Source: Deltaproteobacteria bacterium (GTDB taxonomy: Bacteria; Desulfobacterota; Desulfomonilia; UBA1062). From it: a DNA stretch of 37,510 nucleotides. Under the pieces are notes generated by a model. It worked only from the letters and a program-made list of their open reading frames with translations. It had not been told where the DNA came from and did no database searches. Of the stretch, positions 3,821 through 21,951 are shown piece after piece. The translations under genes were made by a program, and so were the position numbers. The DNA lies in contig JAKQBR010000080.1 in assembly GCA_029574005.1 (NCBI GenBank), forward strand, positions 1 through 37,510, read 5' to 3'. Position 1 is the stretch's first letter; each line of letters begins with the position of its first letter.

Positions 3821-5224
<1,404 letters not shown>

Positions 5225-10751: not shown

Positions 10752-11528
10752 GTGGACATCGTGAAAGACGTTCAGCGCCAGCGGCCGGACAATCCGCTCT
10801 ATATCCAGAAGGTCGGCGTCAAAGGCATCGCCTACCCGATCGTGGTGCTCGACAAGAAGCGCGGCACCCAGCATACCGTGGCATCCATCAATTTGTACTG
10901 CGACCTGCCCATGGAGTTCAAGGGCACGCACATGAGCCGCTTCATCGAGGTGCTCAACGACTACCGCGAGGAGATCCATATCAAGAAGTTCGAACACATC
11001 CTGAACGAGATCCGCTCGGCCCTGGAAGCGGCCAGCGCCCACATGGAGATCGAATTCACCTACTTCATGGAGAAGCAGGCCCCGGTCACGGGCGCCGTCG
11101 GTTTGATGGGCTACCAGTGCTCGCTCTCCGGCATGGTGGGGGCCAAGCGCGAGTTCACGGTGGGCGTCAAGGTCCCGATCCAGACCCTGTGCCCCTGCTC
11201 CAAGGAGATCAGCGTGGCCAGCGCCCACAGCCAGCGCGGCATGGTCAGCGTCGTGGTGCGTTATGAGCGTTTCTTCTGGATCGAGGACCTGATCGAACTG
11301 GTCGAGGGCTGCGGTTCCAGTCCCGTCTACGCCATCCTGAAACGGCCGGACGAAAAATTCGTCACCGAACACGCCTACGCCCACCCCATGTTTGTGGAGG
11401 ACGTGGTCAGACAGGCGGCCTCCGAGCTCGCCAAACATGACGAGTTCTCCTGGTTCTCGGTCGAGGCCGAGAACAACGAGAGCATCCACAACCACAACGC
11501 CTATGCCTATATCGAGGGCGGGGAATAA
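10752..11528 (+). CDS. folE2: GTP cyclohydrolase IB
   Basis: IQKVGVKG, KGTHMSRF, TLCPCSKEIS...AHSQR, KRPDEK.VTE.AY..PMFVED, ESIHNHNAYA. Confidence 0.95.
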   Translation: MDIVKDVQRQRPDNPLYIQKVGVKGIAYPIVVLDKKRGTQHTVASINLYCDLPMEFKGTHMSRFIEVLNDYREEIHIKKFEHILNEIRSALEAASAHMEIEFTYFMEKQAPVTGAVGLMGYQCSLSGMVGAKREFTVGVKVPIQTLCPCSKEISVASAHSQRGMVSVVVRYERFFWIEDLIELVEGCGSSPVYAILKRPDEKFVTEHAYAHPMFVEDVVRQAASELAKHDEFSWFSVEAENNESIHNHNAYAYIEGGE

Positions 11529-12535
11529 TGGCCGATACCGTCCTGCCCCTGGGCAAGCTGCCCGTCGAGCTCCTGGAAACCCTGCTCAAAGGCATCGCCG
11601 CCCACGACCCTAACCTCCTCGTCGGACCCAAGGTCGGCGAGGACGCGGCCGTGGTCAGGGTGGGCGATTCCAGGCTCATCTTCAAGACCGACCCCATCAC
11701 CTTCTTAAGCGAGGACCTGGCCTGGTATCTGGTCACGGTCAACGCCAATGACATCGCCTGCATGGGCGGCACCCCGCGCTACCTGCTGGTCACCGTGCTC
11801 CTGCCGCAGGGCACCACGGAAAAGGCAGTTGCAGACCTGTTCGGCGACCTGCAGAAGGCCAGCGCGGCCATGGACGTCACGTTGATCGGCGGGCACACCG
11901 AGATCACGTACGGGATCGATCGGCCGATCGCCATCGGGTTCATGATCGGCGGTCTGGATGGCCCTGTCATCGGCGCATCCGGGGCCAAACCCGGGGATGC
12001 GATCCTTTTGTCCAAGGCCATCCCGCTGGAGGCGACCTCTATCCTGGCGCGCCAGATGCCCGAACGACTGGGGCTCGAGCAAGACGTCCTGCGACAGGCG
12101 CGCGACCTCATCTTCACCCCCGGGATCAGCGTGGTCAAGGAGGCAAAAATCGCGGCGGCCATGGGAGCCACGGCCATGCATGACCCGACCGAGGGCGGGC
12201 TCGCCACCGGGTTGAGCGAACTGGCGCTGGCCTCAGGGTGTGGCGTGGAGGTGGAGGCCTCCAAGATCCCGGTCCTCCCCATCGCGGCCTCGCTCCTGCC
12301 CTCTCTGGGGATCGACCCCTTGGGCGCCATTGCCTCGGGGACGCTGATCGCCTGCTGTCCGCCTGAAAAGGCCGCGCCGATCCTCAAGGCCTGGCGGGAC
12401 GCCGGCATCGGGGGAGAACTGATCGGCCGCATGACCTCGGGCGGCCTGCGCATGCTCAAGGACGGGGCCGCCATGCCCCTGCCCCGGTTTGAGCGCGATG
12501 AGCTGGCGCGCTTCATGGAAGAGAAGGCAGGCTGA
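11528..12535 (+). CDS. AIR-synthase-related (PurM/HypE/ThiL superfamily) protein
   Basis: GKLP..LL, GP..GEDAAV, KTDPITF, NANDIA..G, GGHTE, MHDPTEGGL; TAATG stop/start overlap with folE2. Confidence 0.85.
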   Translation: MADTVLPLGKLPVELLETLLKGIAAHDPNLLVGPKVGEDAAVVRVGDSRLIFKTDPITFLSEDLAWYLVTVNANDIACMGGTPRYLLVTVLLPQGTTEKAVADLFGDLQKASAAMDVTLIGGHTEITYGIDRPIAIGFMIGGLDGPVIGASGAKPGDAILLSKAIPLEATSILARQMPERLGLEQDVLRQARDLIFTPGISVVKEAKIAAAMGATAMHDPTEGGLATGLSELALASGCGVEVEASKIPVLPIAASLLPSLGIDPLGAIASGTLIACCPPEKAAPILKAWRDAGIGGELIGRMTSGGLRMLKDGAAMPLPRFERDELARFMEEKAG

Positions 12536-17543: not shown

Positions 17544-18293
17544 ATGAGAAGCTCGGACGAGCTGATCATCACCAGCAGGCACAACCCTCATTTCAAGGCT
17601 CTCGCCCGGGCACGACAGGACAAGGACCTGCTGGCCCTGGAGGGCCGCCGGCTGGTCGAAGAGGCGCTCTCACGCGGGTTCACCCCGCACCTGTGCGCCG
17701 TGACGCCTGAATACCTCGCGCTCAACGGGCCGCCGGCCGCACCGTATCAGGTGCTGAGCGAGGACCTCCTGGCCAACCTGAGCGACACCCGCACGCCGCA
17801 GGGGATCATGCTCTTCGTGAACCGCCCCTATGCCGCGCTCTCGGAGGCCGCCCGCCATGACAGACTGATCATCTTGGACGGCGTGCAGGACCCCGGCAAT
17901 GTCGGCACCATCGTGCGCACCGCCGAGGCCTTCGGGTTCGGCGGCCTCATCATCACGCCGGGTACGGCCTCGCCGTATTCGGACAAGGCCGTACGCGCAT
18001 CCATGGGCTCGTTCCTGGGCGTCGCGATCGCAAAGGCCGATTATGCGGGGCTTTCCACCCTTGACCACCGGCTCATCGGCCTGGCCGCGCAGGCCCCCAC
18101 CCCGCTGAGGAGCGGCCTTTTCACCGGCCGCTACGCCATCTGCCTCGGCCAGGAAGGCCGGGGCCTGAGCCCCTCGCTGCTGGCGCAAACGAAGACCTTG
18201 GTCTCCATCGCCATGCCGGGCCCCACGGAATCGCTCAATGTGGCCGTGGCAGCCGGCATCGTCATGGCCTGCGCCGCCGGTGCAGTCTGCTGA
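17544..18293 (+). CDS. TrmH/SpoU-family RNA 2'-O-methyltransferase
   Basis: LDGVQDPGNVGTIVRTA, GQEGRG, ESLNVAVAAG. Confidence 0.92.
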   Translation: MRSSDELIITSRHNPHFKALARARQDKDLLALEGRRLVEEALSRGFTPHLCAVTPEYLALNGPPAAPYQVLSEDLLANLSDTRTPQGIMLFVNRPYAALSEAARHDRLIILDGVQDPGNVGTIVRTAEAFGFGGLIITPGTASPYSDKAVRASMGSFLGVAIAKADYAGLSTLDHRLIGLAAQAPTPLRSGLFTGRYAICLGQEGRGLSPSLLAQTKTLVSIAMPGPTESLNVAVAAGIVMACAAGAVC

Positions 18294-18393
18294 ACGGAAA
18301 CGGAAACACCCCCCTGTAATCCTGGCTTCAAGAAAGACCGATATACACCCTCAGACACCCACAACCGCAAGAGAGAAGGAACGGAAAAGAACC

Positions 18394-19659
18394 ATGCTGC
18401 AGCCAGAACGATATTCGCAAGCGGAGATCCGGAAGATCCAGCGTGCCTGCTGCCGCGTCTTCATGAGCGAGAAGGCCATGCGATCGGTGGTGGTCTCCGA
18501 GAACCAGCGCAAGGTCCTGCGCTACCCATTTCTGGAACAGCTTACCTATGAGGAGGTCAAGCGGGCCTACCGGTCGAACGTCATGGCCTACCACCCGGAC
18601 CGCCATCAGGACAAGCGTCCCGAGGATATCGACTTCTTCGCCCGTCATCTCGAAGGTCTCAATGATTCCTATGAACTGCTGACTACGGTTTTCAAGGGGA
18701 AAAGGCCGGAGGAGACCGCTACCCATCAAGGCCGAAGCCGTATCATCGCGGTCGGGGGAGCCAAGGGCGGGATCGGCAAGAGCATCTTCGCGGCCAACCT
18801 CGGCATGCAACTCAGCTCGCTGGGGTTCAGGACCGCCGTGGTAGACCTGGATCTGGGCGGGTCGAACATCCACATCTATCTCGGCCTCAACCAGATCCCG
18901 GAAACGACACTCAACGACTTCATGAATCGCAGGATCGCATCCTTAGCCGGGGCCGTCGTCCGTCCGGCGCACGGCCCCATGCTTATCGCCGGGAACAATG
19001 GCGAGCTCGGGGCGGCCAATATCCCCTTTCAGACCAAGATGCGCCTGATCGATAACATCGCCAAACTCGACGCCGATTATGTGATCCTCGACCTCGGCGG
19101 CAGCACGGATTTCAACACCCTGGATTTTTTCCTTGCCGCGGACCTCGGGATCGTCCTAACCACGCTCGACCAGCCGGCCTACCTGGAGGCCTACGCCTTC
19201 ATCAAGACCGCCCTGCAGCGCAAGCTCAACCGACTCTTCGGCGCCGATTCCCCCTTCCCGGCCCGCAGCAATGCAGTGCTCAAACAGATCGTACAGGACG
19301 GAACCCGCCCGCCCGACAATGACCATCCCCGTACCATCCAGGACCTGCTCGCGGCGGTGGCGCATGAGGACCCGGTCAGCCTGCCGCTCATCACGGACGA
19401 GATCCTGAACTTCTCGCCCTGCCTGGTGATCAATCGCTGCTTTGACCGCCAGGCCGCCCTCAAAGTGGCCGCGACCCTGCGCTCCGTGGCCTGCCAGCGC
19501 CTGTCCATCGATATCAACCATGTCGGCACCATCTCCAAGCACCCCTTTATCGAGCACAGCACCTCGTATCTCCACCATCCCCTTGTCTTGCGGCCGGGCG
19601 CAGAGCGATTCAACGACGAGATGAGATCCATCGCCGGCACGCTGGGTCTGATACGCTAG
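18394..19659 (+). CDS. J-domain (DnaJ-like) / MinD-FlhG-family ATPase fusion protein
   Basis: EEVKRAYR...YHPDRH J-domain; IIAVGGAKGGIGKS deviant Walker A; VDLDLGGSN, ILDLGG; ATG at 18394. Confidence 0.85.
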   Translation: MLQPERYSQAEIRKIQRACCRVFMSEKAMRSVVVSENQRKVLRYPFLEQLTYEEVKRAYRSNVMAYHPDRHQDKRPEDIDFFARHLEGLNDSYELLTTVFKGKRPEETATHQGRSRIIAVGGAKGGIGKSIFAANLGMQLSSLGFRTAVVDLDLGGSNIHIYLGLNQIPETTLNDFMNRRIASLAGAVVRPAHGPMLIAGNNGELGAANIPFQTKMRLIDNIAKLDADYVILDLGGSTDFNTLDFFLAADLGIVLTTLDQPAYLEAYAFIKTALQRKLNRLFGADSPFPARSNAVLKQIVQDGTRPPDNDHPRTIQDLLAAVAHEDPVSLPLITDEILNFSPCLVINRCFDRQAALKVAATLRSVACQRLSIDINHVGTISKHPFIEHSTSYLHHPLVLRPGAERFNDEMRSIAGTLGLIR

Positions 19660-19665
19660 CAACCC

Positions 19666-20322
19666 ATGGACATGAATATCGATGGAGAGGGGATGAAGCC
19701 TCAGCGCATTCTTGTCTTCCAGCAGGAAGGAAGCGCAGAGAGTAAGATCCGAGGGATCCGTCAATACGGCGGGGAACGTTTCATCATCGAGACGTACGAT
19801 ATCGACGCCCCGCTGCCCTCCTTCATCGAGGACGGCTGCGCGTATCTCCCGGACACCCTTGCCGCTGATCTCGTCCTTGATTATCTGAGACGGCTCGATC
19901 TTTCCCATGACCTGTGGTCTTTCTGCGAGAGGAACGCGGTGCCGGTGGTTGCGTCAAGCAAGAAGGGTGCCGGCGCCTGGGCTGTCACACCGCGGACCTG
20001 CTGCGCCTTGCCCAAGATGGAAAAGCTGGGTGCCTACGGCAGGCTCTTCGGCGCCCCGGAGCTGGAGGTCACCGTGACAGACGGCAGGATTGCCGGGATC
20101 TCCGTGCGGCGCGGCGCTCCCTGCGGGGCGACCTGGGATGCGGCGAGGCGGGTGATCGGGGTGAGGGTCGAGGAGGCGCCCGCCGCCATCGGCCTCACGG
20201 TGCAGTACCATTGCACCGCCGATCCATCCGGGTGGGACGTGATGCACGGCAGAAGCGCGGTGCATATCGCGGCCGAGCTCCACTCCTCCGCGCTGAAAAA
20301 GGCCATCGATCAGGCATCGTGA
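19666..20322 (+). CDS. DUF166-family protein
   Basis: TPRTCCAL...FGAPELEV...RGAPCGATW..A...YHC.A.......IAAELH pattern recalled for DUF166. Confidence 0.75.
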   Translation: MDMNIDGEGMKPQRILVFQQEGSAESKIRGIRQYGGERFIIETYDIDAPLPSFIEDGCAYLPDTLAADLVLDYLRRLDLSHDLWSFCERNAVPVVASSKKGAGAWAVTPRTCCALPKMEKLGAYGRLFGAPELEVTVTDGRIAGISVRRGAPCGATWDAARRVIGVRVEEAPAAIGLTVQYHCTADPSGWDVMHGRSAVHIAAELHSSALKKAIDQAS

Positions 20323-20336
20323 CAGGGGGGCGGGGT

Positions 20337-20864
20337 ATGTCAAGATCGAGAGCCAAGCATCTGGACACGGTTTTTTACGAGAAGGACAAGACCAACCATC
20401 CCGGACGGTTCGTCCGGCGCAGATTCAGGGACCCCCTGCATTTTCTGCACAACCTGATCGATCTGCTCAAGTACACGCCCGATCTGATCCGCGTCTACCT
20501 TTTGAGGGCCATATCGCCCCGCTTGCGCGAGAAGCTCATGTTGACGGTAGCGATGACGAACGATTGCCCGTCCTGAACCTGCGCCCATCAGCGATTCGGT
20601 CGAATCGCGGGTTTGAACGACAACGAGATGCAGCTCTTAGGCCCCCTTAGAAAGGACGACTTCGACGAACGGGAGTGGGCGGCGTTGCAGTGGGCCCGCA
20701 CCATTGTCCTCTTTGAAGGGGCCTTCCCAGACCCGCGCGTGGACGCGGAGTTCCGTAGCAGCTATGCCTTCGGCGAGCGGAAGGCCATCTTCGCCACCGT
20801 CAAGCTGATGCTCTTCTTCAACATGCTCGCCAACAGCATGAACAGCCAAGGTCAACCCCGCTGA
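20337..20864 (+). CDS. AhpD/carboxymuconolactone-decarboxylase-like protein, probable selenoprotein (CxxU; TGA at 20574-20576)
   Basis: ORFs 19914..20576 and 20613..20864 share a frame, separated only by one TGA: LREKLMLTVAMTNDCPS-U-TCAHQRFGRIAGL...EREWAALQWAR matches the AhpD core RE...V...NxCxxC..H....GL. Hairpin follows the TGA. Confidence 0.85.
20577..20612 (+). promoter_or_regulatory. Putative bacterial SECIS element
   Basis: Perfect stem GCGATTC/GAATCGC (20591-20597/20602-20608) with apical loop GGTC, 21 nt after the UGA. Confidence 0.75.
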
Positions 20865-20931
20865 AGAATACCCGTCGGTCCAGTGAGGGCGTGCACAGCC
20901 TGAGCCCTTTGAGGTCGGTCGCGGTCGTCTT

Positions 20932-21951
20932 TCAGGCCCCTAAAGCCATCTGGCAGAGGTCCGGCATGAGGATGGGCGTCATGCCGATGGCGCGCACGCT
21001 CTCCTGCAGGGTGAAGAGGCACATCGGGCAGTTGTAGACGCAATGGGTCGCGCCGCTTGACTGCAGGTCCTCCAGGATCCTCCGGCGGGTATCCCTGGCC
21101 AGCTCGGTGCGCTGCTGGGCATCGAGGCTGAGCCCGCAGCACAGGGCATTCTGGTCCTCGTACCTTCTCTTAACCCGCTCCACCCCGATCAGCGCGAAGA
21201 TCTCGTCCACCAGGGCATGGGTCTCAGGTATGAGGCGGTTCGAGCAGTTGCGGTGGTAGGCGGCCGTGATATTCAGGGGCCTGATCCTGTCTTTCATCTG
21301 GGCCAGGCGGCCGAGGATGTAGTCGTAGAGGTGGACCGGCTTGAAGGGAACCTCGATACCGTAGGCCCTGGCAAAGACGGTAAAGGTGGCGTAGCATTCG
21401 TCATGGTAACAGACCAGTTCGTTGATATGATTTGGCTCCAGGCAGAACTTGCGGATGTTGTCGATGATGAGGGGGAGCCGTTGCTTGGTGATGGATACCT
21501 TCCCGAAGTGCAGATAGATGAGGTTGCAGAAGACGTCCGTGCCCCAGAACAGGGAAGCGTTCTCGAAAAGCGGGCCGCGGATGGATTCCTTGAGCATGGG
21601 AAAGGTGCACAGATCGATGAGGGGGGCATGCATCTCGCGGTATTGGATCTTTTCCCTCGGGGCGAGCGAGGTAATCTGATGCTCCTCGATCTGGGGCGGG
21701 ACCGGGTGAATCCCGTGCCTCTCCTGGAGCTCCACGATGCGGTAGAACGGGTGGCCGCCGTAGGGGCAGTACTCCTCGCATGCATAGCAGGTGACGCAGT
21801 CCTCGAGCACCTGGGATTTTCCGCCCTGGACAAGCACATCCCGTTCGCTTAAGGCGCGCGAAAGGTCGAACCCCAGGTATTGACACCTCATAAGGCAGTC
21901 AACGGTCTCGCAGCGCGTGCACAGCGATGGATCGAACCTTAGTTCCAACAT
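20932..21951 (-). CDS. Fe-S binding protein with CCG domain (HdrD/GlpC-like oxidoreductase)
   Basis: CTRCETVDC...C, CVTCYACEEYCP, YHRNC, LCCG, NCPMC. Confidence 0.85.
   Translation of the reverse strand: MLELRFDPSLCTRCETVDCLMRCQYLGFDLSRALSERDVLVQGGKSQVLEDCVTCYACEEYCPYGGHPFYRIVELQERHGIHPVPPQIEEHQITSLAPREKIQYREMHAPLIDLCTFPMLKESIRGPLFENASLFWGTDVFCNLIYLHFGKVSITKQRLPLIIDNIRKFCLEPNHINELVCYHDECYATFTVFARAYGIEVPFKPVHLYDYILGRLAQMKDRIRPLNITAAYHRNCSNRLIPETHALVDEIFALIGVERVKRRYEDQNALCCGLSLDAQQRTELARDTRRRILEDLQSSGATHCVYNCPMCLFTLQESVRAIGMTPILMPDLCQMALGA

What the first reader, a model, noticed from the sequence alone, without database searches (positions are those of the whole stretch)
20337..20864. Hidden selenoprotein: AhpD/CMD-like oxidoreductase with a CxxU motif and SECIS hairpin, split by ORF callers
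Seen: two ORF fragments share one frame, separated by a single TGA (20574-20576). The TGA sits exactly where the second Cys of the AhpD motif NxCxxC..H is expected (NDCPS-U-TCAH). A perfect 7-bp stem with apical loop GGUC follows 21 nt downstream. Established: bacterial SECIS elements lie just 3' of the UGA and have G at the start of the apical loop; E. coli fdhF has GGUC in its loop; AhpD-like CxxU selenoproteins are known. Inference: a 175-aa Sec protein. Its extra Cys two residues after Sec (C-x-x-U-x-C-x-H) and its long basic N-terminal extension look atypical and may define a distinct subfamily.
Basis: partly seen in the sequence, partly recalled or inferred. Interest (0 to 1): 0.85.

Follow-up and report, generated by a model that had tools for sequence, protein, structure and literature searches.

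The report
AhpD-like selenoprotein gene split by UGA
This is a real but ordinary-in-kind gene for a small redox enzyme of the AhpD family that carries selenocysteine at its active site, so gene callers wrongly cut it in two at the UGA codon.

Summary
Window 20337-20864 (+) is one 175-codon frame with a single TGA at 20574-20576. A GCGAUUC-GGUC-GAAUCGC hairpin lies at 20591-20608.

- All 18 related loci that cover the site keep TGA at this column (14 distinct sequences, 57-66% protein identity).
- 122 of 124 more distant homologues that cover the column have Cys there.
- The frame after the TGA is under purifying selection (median dN/dS 0.18, against 0.14 before it).
- The read-through protein passes the Pfam CMD threshold.
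- It models as an all-helical AhpD fold (pLDDT 90.3).
- It carries the E-x11-C-x-x-U-x-x-x-H catalytic signature.
- The hairpin core is sequence-invariant, down to the codons used.
- Its GGUC loop resembles the loops after the TGA of two FdhA genes in the same genome.

Caveats:
- This 87%-complete genome has selA and selB, but no selD or tRNA-Sec was found.
- Three of three relatives with the gene have both.
- The hairpin is not more stable than shuffles and shows no compensatory changes.
- The extra Cys is unique to this sequence, so it does not define a subfamily.

AhpD/CMD-like CxxU selenoproteins have been known since 2005. This is a new, lineage-restricted member of a known kind.

The parts
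20337..20864 (+). Coding sequence of the AhpD/CMD-like selenoprotein: 175 codons including Sec80, plus the final TGA stop.
   Evidence: Pfam CMD 28.8 bits (cut-off 23) over residues 58-121, spanning the TGA. Orthologues align over the full length.
20325..20335 (+). G-rich ribosome-binding-like run (GGGGGGCGGGG) just upstream of ATG 20337. It lies 3 nt after the stop of the upstream DUF166 gene.
   Evidence: Read from the sequence. That it acts as a ribosome-binding site is inference.
20529..20531 (+). Glu65 codon, 12 residues before Cys77. It sits at the position of the proton-relay Glu of AhpD.
   Evidence: Nearly invariant (90% or more) in the 82-sequence alignment A4. Aligned with the RE..T.A.TN.C..C..H motif of PDB 6e8l. 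The catalytic role is recalled knowledge of M. tuberculosis AhpD.
20565..20567 (+). Cys77 codon (TGC), the first residue of the C-x-x-U motif and the presumed resolving thiol.
   Evidence: Same TGC codon in all 14 distinct orthologues. Nearly invariant in A4.
20574..20576 (+). In-frame TGA read as selenocysteine (Sec80).
   Evidence: TGA at this column in 18 of 18 loci covering the site. '1 TGA' inside the match in 6 of 6 species genomes of the class that have the gene. Cys in 122 of 124 homologues covering the column.
20586..20588 (+). His84 codon of the C-x-x-U-x-x-x-H signature.
   Evidence: The only invariant column of alignment A4.
20591..20608 (+). SECIS-like hairpin: stem 20591-20597 / 20602-20608, apical loop GGUC 20598-20601. 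It lies inside the codons for (Q)RFGRIA.
   Evidence: The 6-bp core CGAUUC-GGUC-GAAUCG is kept in 13 of 13 aligned orthologues, with one G-U change. Codons +7 to +10 use one codon each in 14 distinct sequences. Similar GGUC(U) loops follow the TGA of two FdhA genes of the same genome.
19666..20322 (+). Upstream neighbour, a DUF166 (PF02593) protein, probably co-transcribed across a 14-nt gap. Its link to the selenoprotein is uncertain.
   Evidence: Pfam 128.5 bits. Adjacent to the orthologue in L022/L044, L050, L051 and, in two pieces, L045. Not adjacent in L023/L046, L024/L047/L055/L056, L043, L052 or L057.

Best explanation
The region encodes one 175-residue protein of the AhpD/carboxymuconolactone-decarboxylase (CMD) superfamily. 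The second residue of its C-x-x-C active-site pair is selenocysteine, encoded by UGA at 20574-20576.

Proposed decoding (inferred): during translation, SelB carrying Sec-tRNA(Sec) binds the GGUC-loop hairpin whose loop starts 21 nt downstream. It delivers Sec instead of terminating.

Proposed chemistry, by analogy with AhpD (inferred, not shown):
1. Glu65 and His84 activate the selenol of U80.
2. U80 attacks a peroxide, a sulfenic acid or a disulfide on a partner.
3. Cys77 resolves the intermediate as a selenenylsulfide.
4. An unknown reductant recycles it.

Shown here: the conserved TGA, the Sec/Cys pairing, selection on the downstream frame, the fold and motif, and the conserved hairpin sequence.

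Inferred: actual Sec insertion, SelB binding, the substrate and the reductant.
For: 1. TGA conservation. TGA sits at the same column in 18 of 18 loci that cover the site. 21 loci were examined; L048 and L059 are distant Cys paralogues and L058 lacks the site. 14 distinct full sequences were recovered. In the class sample, 6 of 122 species genomes have the gene, each with exactly 1 TGA inside.

2. Truncated gene calls. Independent gene calls in public data end exactly before this column: 7 N-terminal fragments ending NDCxx, namely P0003, P0007-P0011 and the window's own P0005.

3. Cys in homologues. Homologues without a stop have Cys there: L041 and L042 (35-37% identity), L025 and L026. Of the 149 best library representatives, 122 have C, 1 W, 1 F and 25 do not cover the column.

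4. Selection. Median dN/dS is 0.18 downstream of the TGA (78 pairs) against 0.14 upstream (81 pairs).

5. Family and fold.
- Pfam CMD 28.8 bits against cut-off 23, spanning the TGA.
- The profile hits PDB AhpD 6e8l at E 1.3e-5 over query positions 31-169.
- The AF2 model has pLDDT 90.3 and pTM 0.86 and is all-helical.
- Most of the listed Foldseek PDB matches, including the whole top of the list, are AhpD/CMD proteins, with TM about 0.5-0.64.
- E65, C77, U80 and H84 are nearly invariant or invariant in 82 sequences.

6. Hairpin.
- The core is identical in 13 of 13 aligned orthologues, apart from one A-to-G change that keeps a G-U pair.
- Codons +7 to +10 (F, G, R, I) use a single codon each in 14 distinct sequences. 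Only 14 of 64 amino-acid-invariant degenerate columns do so.
- Base rate of such a hairpin after a TGA triplet: 2 of 1212.
- Two FdhA genes of the same genome have an in-frame TGA followed by stems closing GGUCU loops.

7. Sec machinery. selA (517 bits) and selB (339.6 bits) are intact in this genome. The three relatives searched that carry the gene (G001, G031, G036) all have selD, itself with 1 TGA, and tRNA-Sec at 72-77 bits.

8. Genetic code. TGA is the commonest ordinary stop here. It ends 868 of 1809 open frames of 350 codons or more, and it ends the neighbouring genes. The genome therefore does not read TGA as a sense codon generally.
Against: 1. Missing Sec genes in this genome.
- No selD over cut-off (best 81.5 bits against 125).
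- No tblastn match at E 1e-6 or better to the same-genus selD.
- No tRNA-Sec. The one Rfam hit over cut-off is a tRNA-Trp.
- At the place syntenic with the same-genus selD locus the flanks are joined without selD (C370 4428/4490).
- The genome is 87% complete, in 417 contigs.

2. Hairpin energetics. The hairpin is not thermodynamically exceptional: z -0.02, -1.48, -0.02, +0.86, +0.22 and -0.67.

3. No covariation. 0 of 9 consensus pairs show a compensatory double change. Support for the structure is conservation, not covariation. The conserved RFGRIAG peptide could account for part of it.

4. No Rfam family matched.

5. Trp in records. Three database proteins show W at the column: P0002, its cluster mate P0164, and P0030. 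Their DNA could not be read.

6. The NCBIfam ahpD_dom score of 24.1 is below its cut-off of 27.8.
Confidence: 0.9

Rival explanations
1. The Sec trait is decaying in this strain. The gene is a selenoprotein gene in relatives, but this organism has lost selD and tRNA-Sec. Here the UGA terminates and only a 79-residue fragment, or nothing useful, is made.
For: selD and tRNA-Sec were not found. selD is absent from the site syntenic with the same-genus genome G001, where the flanks are joined. tRNA-Sec is not next to the gene that flanks it in G001.
Against: selA and selB are full-length and open. Two FdhA genes keep an in-frame TGA in 905-916-aa open frames. The frame downstream of the TGA in the window is intact and is 86% identical to the near relative P0006. 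The genome is only 87% complete, and G001 is diverged (80-85% nucleotide identity in the flanks), so the synteny argument is weak.
Confidence: 0.05
2. Nonsense pseudogene, or two separate small genes of 79 aa and 83 aa. The hairpin is a chance or terminator-like feature.
For: Table-11 ORF callers give two pieces. The hairpin energy is not better than shuffles.
Against: The TGA is kept at one column in 14 distinct sequences that are otherwise 57-66% identical. dN/dS downstream is 0.18. The CMD domain and the AhpD fold span both halves. Cys homologues are continuous.
Confidence: 0.02
3. The UGA is read as Trp or another standard residue, through codon reassignment or near-cognate read-through, not as Sec.
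For: P0002, P0164 and P0030 are recorded with W at the column.
Against: TGA ends most long frames in this genome and ends the neighbouring genes. The column is Cys in 122 of 124 homologues that cover it, within a CxxC redox motif where Trp would abolish chemistry. All 18 loci whose DNA could be read have TGA, never TGG. The W records sit on contigs of about 1 kb. There a metagenome gene caller may have chosen a TGA=Trp model. That is my inference and is unverified.
Confidence: 0.02

Closest known systems
AhpD-like and CMD-domain CxxU selenoproteins of bacteria. Sources: Sargasso Sea selenoproteome, PMC1088965; GOS, PMC2398784; 2026 review table, PMC13188914. I read passages found by term search in each.
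   Same: CMD/AhpD domain (PF02627). Sec is the second residue of a CxxU motif. Cys homologues are widespread. A SECIS hairpin lies just 3' of the UGA, with G in the apical loop.
   Different: It does not reach the cut-offs of the curated (seleno)protein models it touches: NF041047 14.7 against 110, TIGR01926 14 against 81.8, and no hit to NF053654. The orthologue group was found only in two genera of one family, and no Cys orthologue above about 37% identity was seen. I could not check whether this exact group is already listed in BSepDB or in the papers' supplements, because supplements are closed and the database is not on hand.
Solved Cys-type AhpD proteins: Streptococcus pneumoniae AhpD (PDB 6e8l), Pseudomonas aeruginosa AhpD (7xw1), Atu0492 (2gmy).
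   Same: All-helical AhpD fold: TM 0.54-0.64 normalised to the query, sequence-profile E 1.3e-5 to 6e8l. Same RE-x10-C-x-x-C-x-x-x-H signature in the alignment.
   Different: Sec replaces the second Cys. Sequence identity is 16-24%. There are about 30 extra N-terminal residues, modelled with low confidence (pLDDT 49-63 for residues 1-20).
Mycobacterium tuberculosis AhpD (PDB 1knc, 1gu9).
   Same: The Glu / Cys-x-x-Cys / His catalytic arrangement. That the second Cys is the nucleophile in M. tuberculosis AhpD is recalled, not tested here.
   Different: Weak structural match: Foldseek E 0.74, TM about 0.5, 12% identity. The M. tuberculosis AhpD partners (AhpC, lipoamide system) were not sought here.
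Escherichia coli fdhF SECIS (recalled: apical loop GGUC about 20 nt after the UGA), and the FdhA SECIS elements of this same genome.
   Same: A GGUC apical loop starting 21 nt after the UGA. The two FdhA genes on C39 and C125 have stems closing GGUCU loops after their TGA.
   Different: The upper stem is short, 6-7 bp, with no bulged U seen. The lower stem differs between the window and its orthologues. SelB binding was not tested.

Membership tests
Bacterial selenoprotein gene (UGA decoded as Sec) | In-frame UGA conserved at one column among orthologues | tested here: met
   18 of 18 loci covering the site, 14 distinct. 6 of 6 species genomes with the gene show 1 TGA.
Bacterial selenoprotein gene (UGA decoded as Sec) | Cys in homologues at the aligned column | tested here: met
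   122 C, 1 W, 1 F and 25 not covering, among 149 representatives. tblastn alignments of L041, L042, L025 and L026.
Bacterial selenoprotein gene (UGA decoded as Sec) | Coding constraint continues downstream of the UGA | tested here: met
   Median dN/dS 0.18 downstream against 0.14 upstream. 62 invariant residues across A2, many of them after the TGA.
Bacterial selenoprotein gene (UGA decoded as Sec) | Stem-loop just 3' of the UGA with G in the apical loop, at a SECIS-like distance. The 16-37 nt criterion is recalled from bSECISearch. | tested here: met
   Present and sequence-conserved. Codon-level invariance. However, there is no compensatory change, energy is not better than shuffles, and there is no Rfam match.
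Bacterial selenoprotein gene (UGA decoded as Sec) | selA, selB, selC and selD in the genome | tested here: inconclusive
   selA and selB are over cut-off. selD and tRNA-Sec were not found in this 87%-complete genome. Both were found in 3 of 3 relatives with the gene. Two FdhA genes with TGA are in the same genome.
Bacterial selenoprotein gene (UGA decoded as Sec) | Selenium in the protein | not testable with these tools
   Needs 75Se labelling or mass spectrometry.
AhpD / CMD superfamily (Pfam PF02627) | Score over Pfam's gathering cut-off | tested here: met
   28.8 bits against 23, residues 58-121, with C in place of U.
AhpD / CMD superfamily (Pfam PF02627) | NCBIfam ahpD_dom (TIGR00778) over cut-off | tested here: not met
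   24.1 bits against 27.8. Several Cys homologues pass it.
AhpD / CMD superfamily (Pfam PF02627) | E-x11-C-x-x-C-x-x-x-H catalytic signature | tested here: met
   E65, C77, U80 and H84: H84 invariant, the others 90% or more in 82 sequences. Aligned with the motif of 6e8l.
AhpD / CMD superfamily (Pfam PF02627) | All-helical AhpD fold | tested here: met
   Model pLDDT 90.3 with eight helices. Most of the listed Foldseek PDB matches, including the whole top of the list, are AhpD/CMD entries, best E 2.3e-3, TM 0.60-0.64.
AhpD / CMD superfamily (Pfam PF02627) | Peroxidase or disulfide-reductase activity | not testable with these tools
   Enzyme assay needed.
Curated AhpD-type (seleno)protein equivalogs and subfamily models: NF041047 GSU3128 family, NF053654 YciW-related, TIGR01926 peroxidase-related | Score over the model's cut-off | tested here: not met
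   NF041047 14.7 against 110. TIGR01926 14 against 81.8. NF053654 not listed at E up to 1.

The most novel reading that the evidence does not exclude
This is a Sec-only, lineage-restricted AhpD subfamily with no close Cys orthologue. It acts as a selenol redox helper for its recurrent upstream neighbour DUF166. In Methanococcus maripaludis a DUF166 protein is required for CODH/ACS-dependent autotrophy and sits next to a CooC-type P-loop NTPase (bioRxiv 10.1101/2024.03.05.583561, passages read). In the window a ParA/CbiA-type P-loop NTPase precedes DUF166. On this reading the selenoprotein would serve metal-centre maturation or repair rather than peroxide detoxification.
Probability: 0.08. Interest if true: 0.55.

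Novelty: new member of a known kind. Interest (0 to 1): 0.3.

Why it matters
Practical value is in annotation. In public protein sets this gene appears only as fragments of 76-107 aa ending before the TGA, as C-terminal pieces, or with W at the site. The selenoproteome of these syntrophic anaerobic-digester bacteria is therefore undercounted.

Biologically it adds a narrow, apparently Sec-only branch to the AhpD/CMD selenoproteins. It also gives a clean example of a SECIS core written into an invariant peptide (RFGRIA). It does not change what is known about Sec decoding or about AhpD chemistry.

Tried and rejected
- Rfam scan of 20450-20750 at E up to 10: three chance-level hits (E 0.85-1.4), none a SECIS.
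- RNAalifold on 13 orthologues: 9 pairs, no compensatory change. No covariance model was built.
- Folding-energy z-scores give no support.
- tRNA-Sec search in this genome: ARAGORN found 38 tRNAs and no SeC. The only Rfam RF01852 hit over cut-off is a tRNA-Trp of 76 nt.
- blastn, tblastx and tblastn with the same-genus selD and tRNA-Sec loci found only flanking genes.
- Conserved operon: apart from DUF166 in some lineages, neighbours differ (penicillin-binding transpeptidase, TetR, Usp, NifB/X-like, radical SAM). The window's P-loop NTPase, CCG/Fer4, TIM and PGK neighbours had no match in the orthologous loci.
- Expression: no RNA holder is listed among the sequencing runs. The one 'RNA?' run laid (X20) is probably DNA and covers only 20633-20821.
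- The Trp records P0002, P0164 and P0030 could not be resolved.
- The search of earlier findings returned nothing for this genome.
- A whole-phylum sample of 401 genomes gave only two Cys homologues at E 1e-20 or better besides the window.

Full report
**1. Observation**

The sequence is as described.
- ATG at 20337 opens a frame that runs to TGA at 20862-20864. It has one internal TGA at 20574-20576.
- Under table 11 the frame is listed as two pieces, 19914..20576 and 20613..20864.
- The peptide around the stop is TNDCPS-U-TCAH.
- A perfect 7-bp stem, GCGAUUC (20591-20597) with GAAUCGC (20602-20608), closes a GGUC loop (20598-20601).
- The stem begins 14 nt after the UGA. The loop begins 21 nt after it.

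As a base rate, only 2 of 1212 TGA triplets in the window (both strands) are followed at 16-37 nt by a perfect stem of 7 bp or more with a 4-nt loop starting GG. The 16-37 nt range is recalled from the bSECISearch description.

Folding energy is not exceptional: z -0.02 for 67 nt and -1.48 for 45 nt.

Contigs from runs of two other studies cover the TGA with no differing letter (X5 20412-20900, X8 20334-20708). The stop is therefore not an assembly slip.

**2. Is the TGA a conserved coding position?**

*Protein searches.* Word-based protein searches returned only fragments and one read-through form.
- Seven N-terminal pieces all end at NDCxx, directly before the column: P0003, P0007-P0011 and the window's own P0005.
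- C-terminal pieces were also found: P0006, P0012 and P0013.
- One 142-aa protein, P0002, has W at the column.

*DNA of relatives.* DNA was fetched from species genomes and metagenome contigs.
- 21 loci were examined.
- 18 carry the motif, and all 18 have TGA at the column.
- The other three are two distant Cys paralogues (L048 and L059) and one contig that lacks the site (L058).
- Seventeen loci cover codons -66 to +90. They comprise 14 distinct sequences.
- Protein identity to the window is 57-66%.

*Taxonomic spread.*
- In a sample of all 122 genomes held for the class, 6 have the gene (two genera of one family). Each shows exactly one TGA inside the match.
- In a 401-genome sample of the phylum, the only further matches at E 1e-20 or better are two Cys forms at 35-37% identity.
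- Record titles name Thermodesulfobacteriota and Syntrophaceae MAGs.

**3. Sec/Cys pairing and selection**

- Homologues without a stop align Cys to the TGA: NRCRAC-MAVH in L041 and L042, and CKYC and CRYC in L025 and L026.
- An exhaustive profile search found 665 proteins at E 0.001 or better.
- Among the 149 best, the column is C in 122, W in 1 (P0030) and F in 1 (P0035). It is not covered in 25, which are mostly halves of split genes.
- Nine representatives lack the first Cys but keep the second (ESCH and EACH patterns). This fits the second position being the essential one.
- Nei-Gojobori dN/dS among pairs with pS above 0.15 has a median of 0.14 upstream (81 pairs) and 0.18 downstream of the TGA (78 pairs). 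The downstream frame is therefore translated.

**4. What protein is it?**

- With C for U, the protein passes Pfam CMD (28.8 bits against 23) over residues 58-121, which span the TGA.
- It misses NCBIfam ahpD_dom (24.1 against 27.8). It is far below the curated AhpD-type (seleno)protein models NF041047 and TIGR01926, and NF053654 is not hit. Some Cys homologues touch these models weakly.
- A profile of five orthologues hits the PDB chain 6e8l (S. pneumoniae AhpD) at E 1.3e-5 over positions 31-169. The RE-x10-C-x-x-C-x-x-x-H motif aligns.
- An AlphaFold2 model built on an 82-sequence alignment has pLDDT 90.3 and pTM 0.86, with eight helices. Residues 1-20 are poorly defined.
- Most of the listed Foldseek PDB matches, including the whole top of the list, are AhpD/CMD proteins: 2gmy, 7xw1, 2ijc, 6ohi (the debrominase Bmp8), 3lvy, 6k40, 6e8l, and more weakly 1knc and 1gu9. 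The best E-value is 2.3e-3 and TM is 0.5-0.64.
- In the 82-sequence alignment H84 is invariant. E65, N75, C77 and C/U80 are conserved at 90% or more.
- The spacing E-x11-C-x-x-U-x-x-x-H equals the catalytic Glu/Cys/Cys/His arrangement that I recall for M. tuberculosis AhpD. There the second Cys is the nucleophile.

**5. The hairpin as a SECIS**

- The core CGAUUC-GGUC-GAAUCG is identical in 13 of 13 aligned orthologues, except for one lineage with CGG. That change keeps a G-U pair.
- The core lies in the codons for R-F-G-R-I-A, an invariant peptide.
- Codons +7 to +10 use one codon each in all 14 distinct sequences, and +6 varies only between CGA and CGG. Across the gene, only 14 of 64 amino-acid-invariant degenerate columns are single-codon. 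The Ala codon just outside the stem (+11) uses all four codons. This points to an RNA-level constraint on top of the protein constraint.
- The seventh pair and the lower stem of the window's hairpin are not shared by the orthologues.
- Against: no compensatory double change (0 of 9 pairs), no energy signal and no Rfam match.
- In the same genome, two FdhA genes carry an in-frame TGA at the canonical ...CAR(L/T)-U-H... site. Each is followed by a stem closing a GGUCU loop. The putative SelB-binding loop is therefore of the local type. The likeness to the E. coli fdhF loop is recalled, not tested.

**6. Sec machinery**

*This genome* (87% complete, 6.4% contamination, 417 contigs):
- It holds selA (517 bits) and a full selB (339.6 bits), plus a partial selB-like frame on the 2.1-kb contig C307.
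- selD was not found over cut-off. The best hits are AIR-synthase-type paralogues at 79-82 bits.
- No tRNA-Sec was found.
- tblastn with the same-genus selD found nothing at E 1e-6 or better.
- At the place syntenic with that selD, the flanks are joined without it.

*Relatives that carry the orthologue.* Three were searched (G001 same genus, G031, G036). All have selD, each itself with one TGA, and tRNA-Sec at 72-77 bits.

*My reading.* This is an assembly or binning gap, given intact selA and selB and three TGA-bearing genes. Trait decay in this strain is not excluded (about 5%).

*Genetic code.* TGA is the commonest terminator of long frames (868 of 1809). It also ends the adjacent genes, which rules out a general TGA reassignment.

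**7.

- The extra Cys (U-x-C) is present only in the window's sequence among 15 distinct orthologues. The others have N, K or D. P0012 has G and P0002 has N. It does not mark a subfamily.
- The N-terminal part is conserved among orthologues (F-Y-E-K-D-K..P-G-R-F-V-x-R-x-F-x-D-P). Only about 30 residues precede the region that aligns with solved AhpD proteins.

**8. Context**

- The gene follows a DUF166 gene (19666-20322; Pfam 128.5 bits) after a 14-nt gap that holds a G-rich run.
- A convergent CCG/4Fe-4S protein lies downstream, at 20932-21951.
- DUF166 is also the upstream neighbour in L022/L044, L050, L051 and, in two pieces, L045. It is not the neighbour in L023/L046, L024/L047/L055/L056, L043, L052 or L057.
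- Other neighbours differ between lineages.
- A preprint reports that a DUF166 gene next to cooC2 is needed for autotrophy through CODH/ACS in M. maripaludis (10.1101/2024.03.05.583561, passages read). In the window a ParA/CbiA-type P-loop NTPase precedes DUF166. That neighbour is not conserved in the orthologous loci. I treat this as a lead only.

**9. Comparison with what is known, and novelty**

- AhpD-like and CMD-domain CxxU selenoproteins were described from the Sargasso Sea data (27 and 4 sequences; PMC1088965).
- They were described again from GOS (AhpD-like 1 and AhpD-like 2; PMC2398784).
- A 2026 review table lists several AhpD/CMD selenoprotein families, among them 'CMD-like protein, PF02627, CxxU' (PMC13188914).
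- I read only the passages found by term search. Supplements are closed, so I cannot say whether this exact orthologue group has been listed.

By the tests above the window's gene belongs to this kind. It is a separate, narrow branch that the curated equivalog models do not capture, and it is stored in public protein sets as fragments.

**Verdict:** a real feature, correctly interpreted in its core, and a new member of a known kind. Interest is modest.

Noticed in passing
own genome, contig C370 around 4428-4490 (compared with L061 140-2547): In the same-genus genome G001, a 397-aa gene and selD lie between two genes. In this genome those two genes are directly adjacent, so selD is missing from its syntenic place, not just from the assembly list. 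The 397-aa gene has paralogues elsewhere (C405, C348).
   Followed up: partly
own genome: C39:15012-17018, C125:7445-9451, C246:1770-3779: There are three full-length FdhA genes. Two have one in-frame TGA at the CAR(L/T)-U-H site followed by GGUCU-loop hairpins. One has no stop, presumably a Cys form.
   Followed up: partly
own genome: C307:850-1929 (L002), with tRNA-Leu at 12-98: A second selB-like frame (299.5 bits, model positions 1-354) lies on a 2.1-kb contig beside the full selB on C248. It could be a fragment from a contaminating or co-binned organism (contamination 6.4%), or a paralogue.
   Followed up: no
window 18238-19659 and 19666-20322: A ParA/CbiA/NUBPL-type P-loop NTPase, with a weak DnaJ-like stretch, directly precedes a DUF166 gene. 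This recalls the cooC2-DUF166 pair needed for CODH/ACS-dependent autotrophy in M. maripaludis (bioRxiv 10.1101/2024.03.05.583561). The NTPase is not conserved next to DUF166 in the orthologous loci.
   Followed up: partly
L060, L061, L062 (selD of G031, G001, G036): selD of the relatives is itself a selenoprotein gene, with one TGA. In G001, the only one translated here, it sits in a GAG-U-ACK motif and is followed by a strong hairpin with a GGU loop.
   Followed up: partly
proteins P0002, P0164 (about 1-kb contigs) and P0030: These public protein records show Trp exactly at the Sec column of this family. P0030 is only about 34% identical to the orthologues. If its W is a mis-read TGA, a second and more distant Sec-bearing branch exists.
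   Followed up: partly
L045:3482-3930: The DUF166 gene upstream of the orthologue matches the window's DUF166 in two pieces (residues 10-64 and 131-216). This suggests an internal deletion or a broken copy in that genome.
   Followed up: no
window 11528-12535: This open frame gives a sub-threshold hit to the selD model (81.5 bits against cut-off 125). It is therefore an AIR-synthase-type paralogue (HypE/ThiL/PurM-like), not selD.
   Followed up: no
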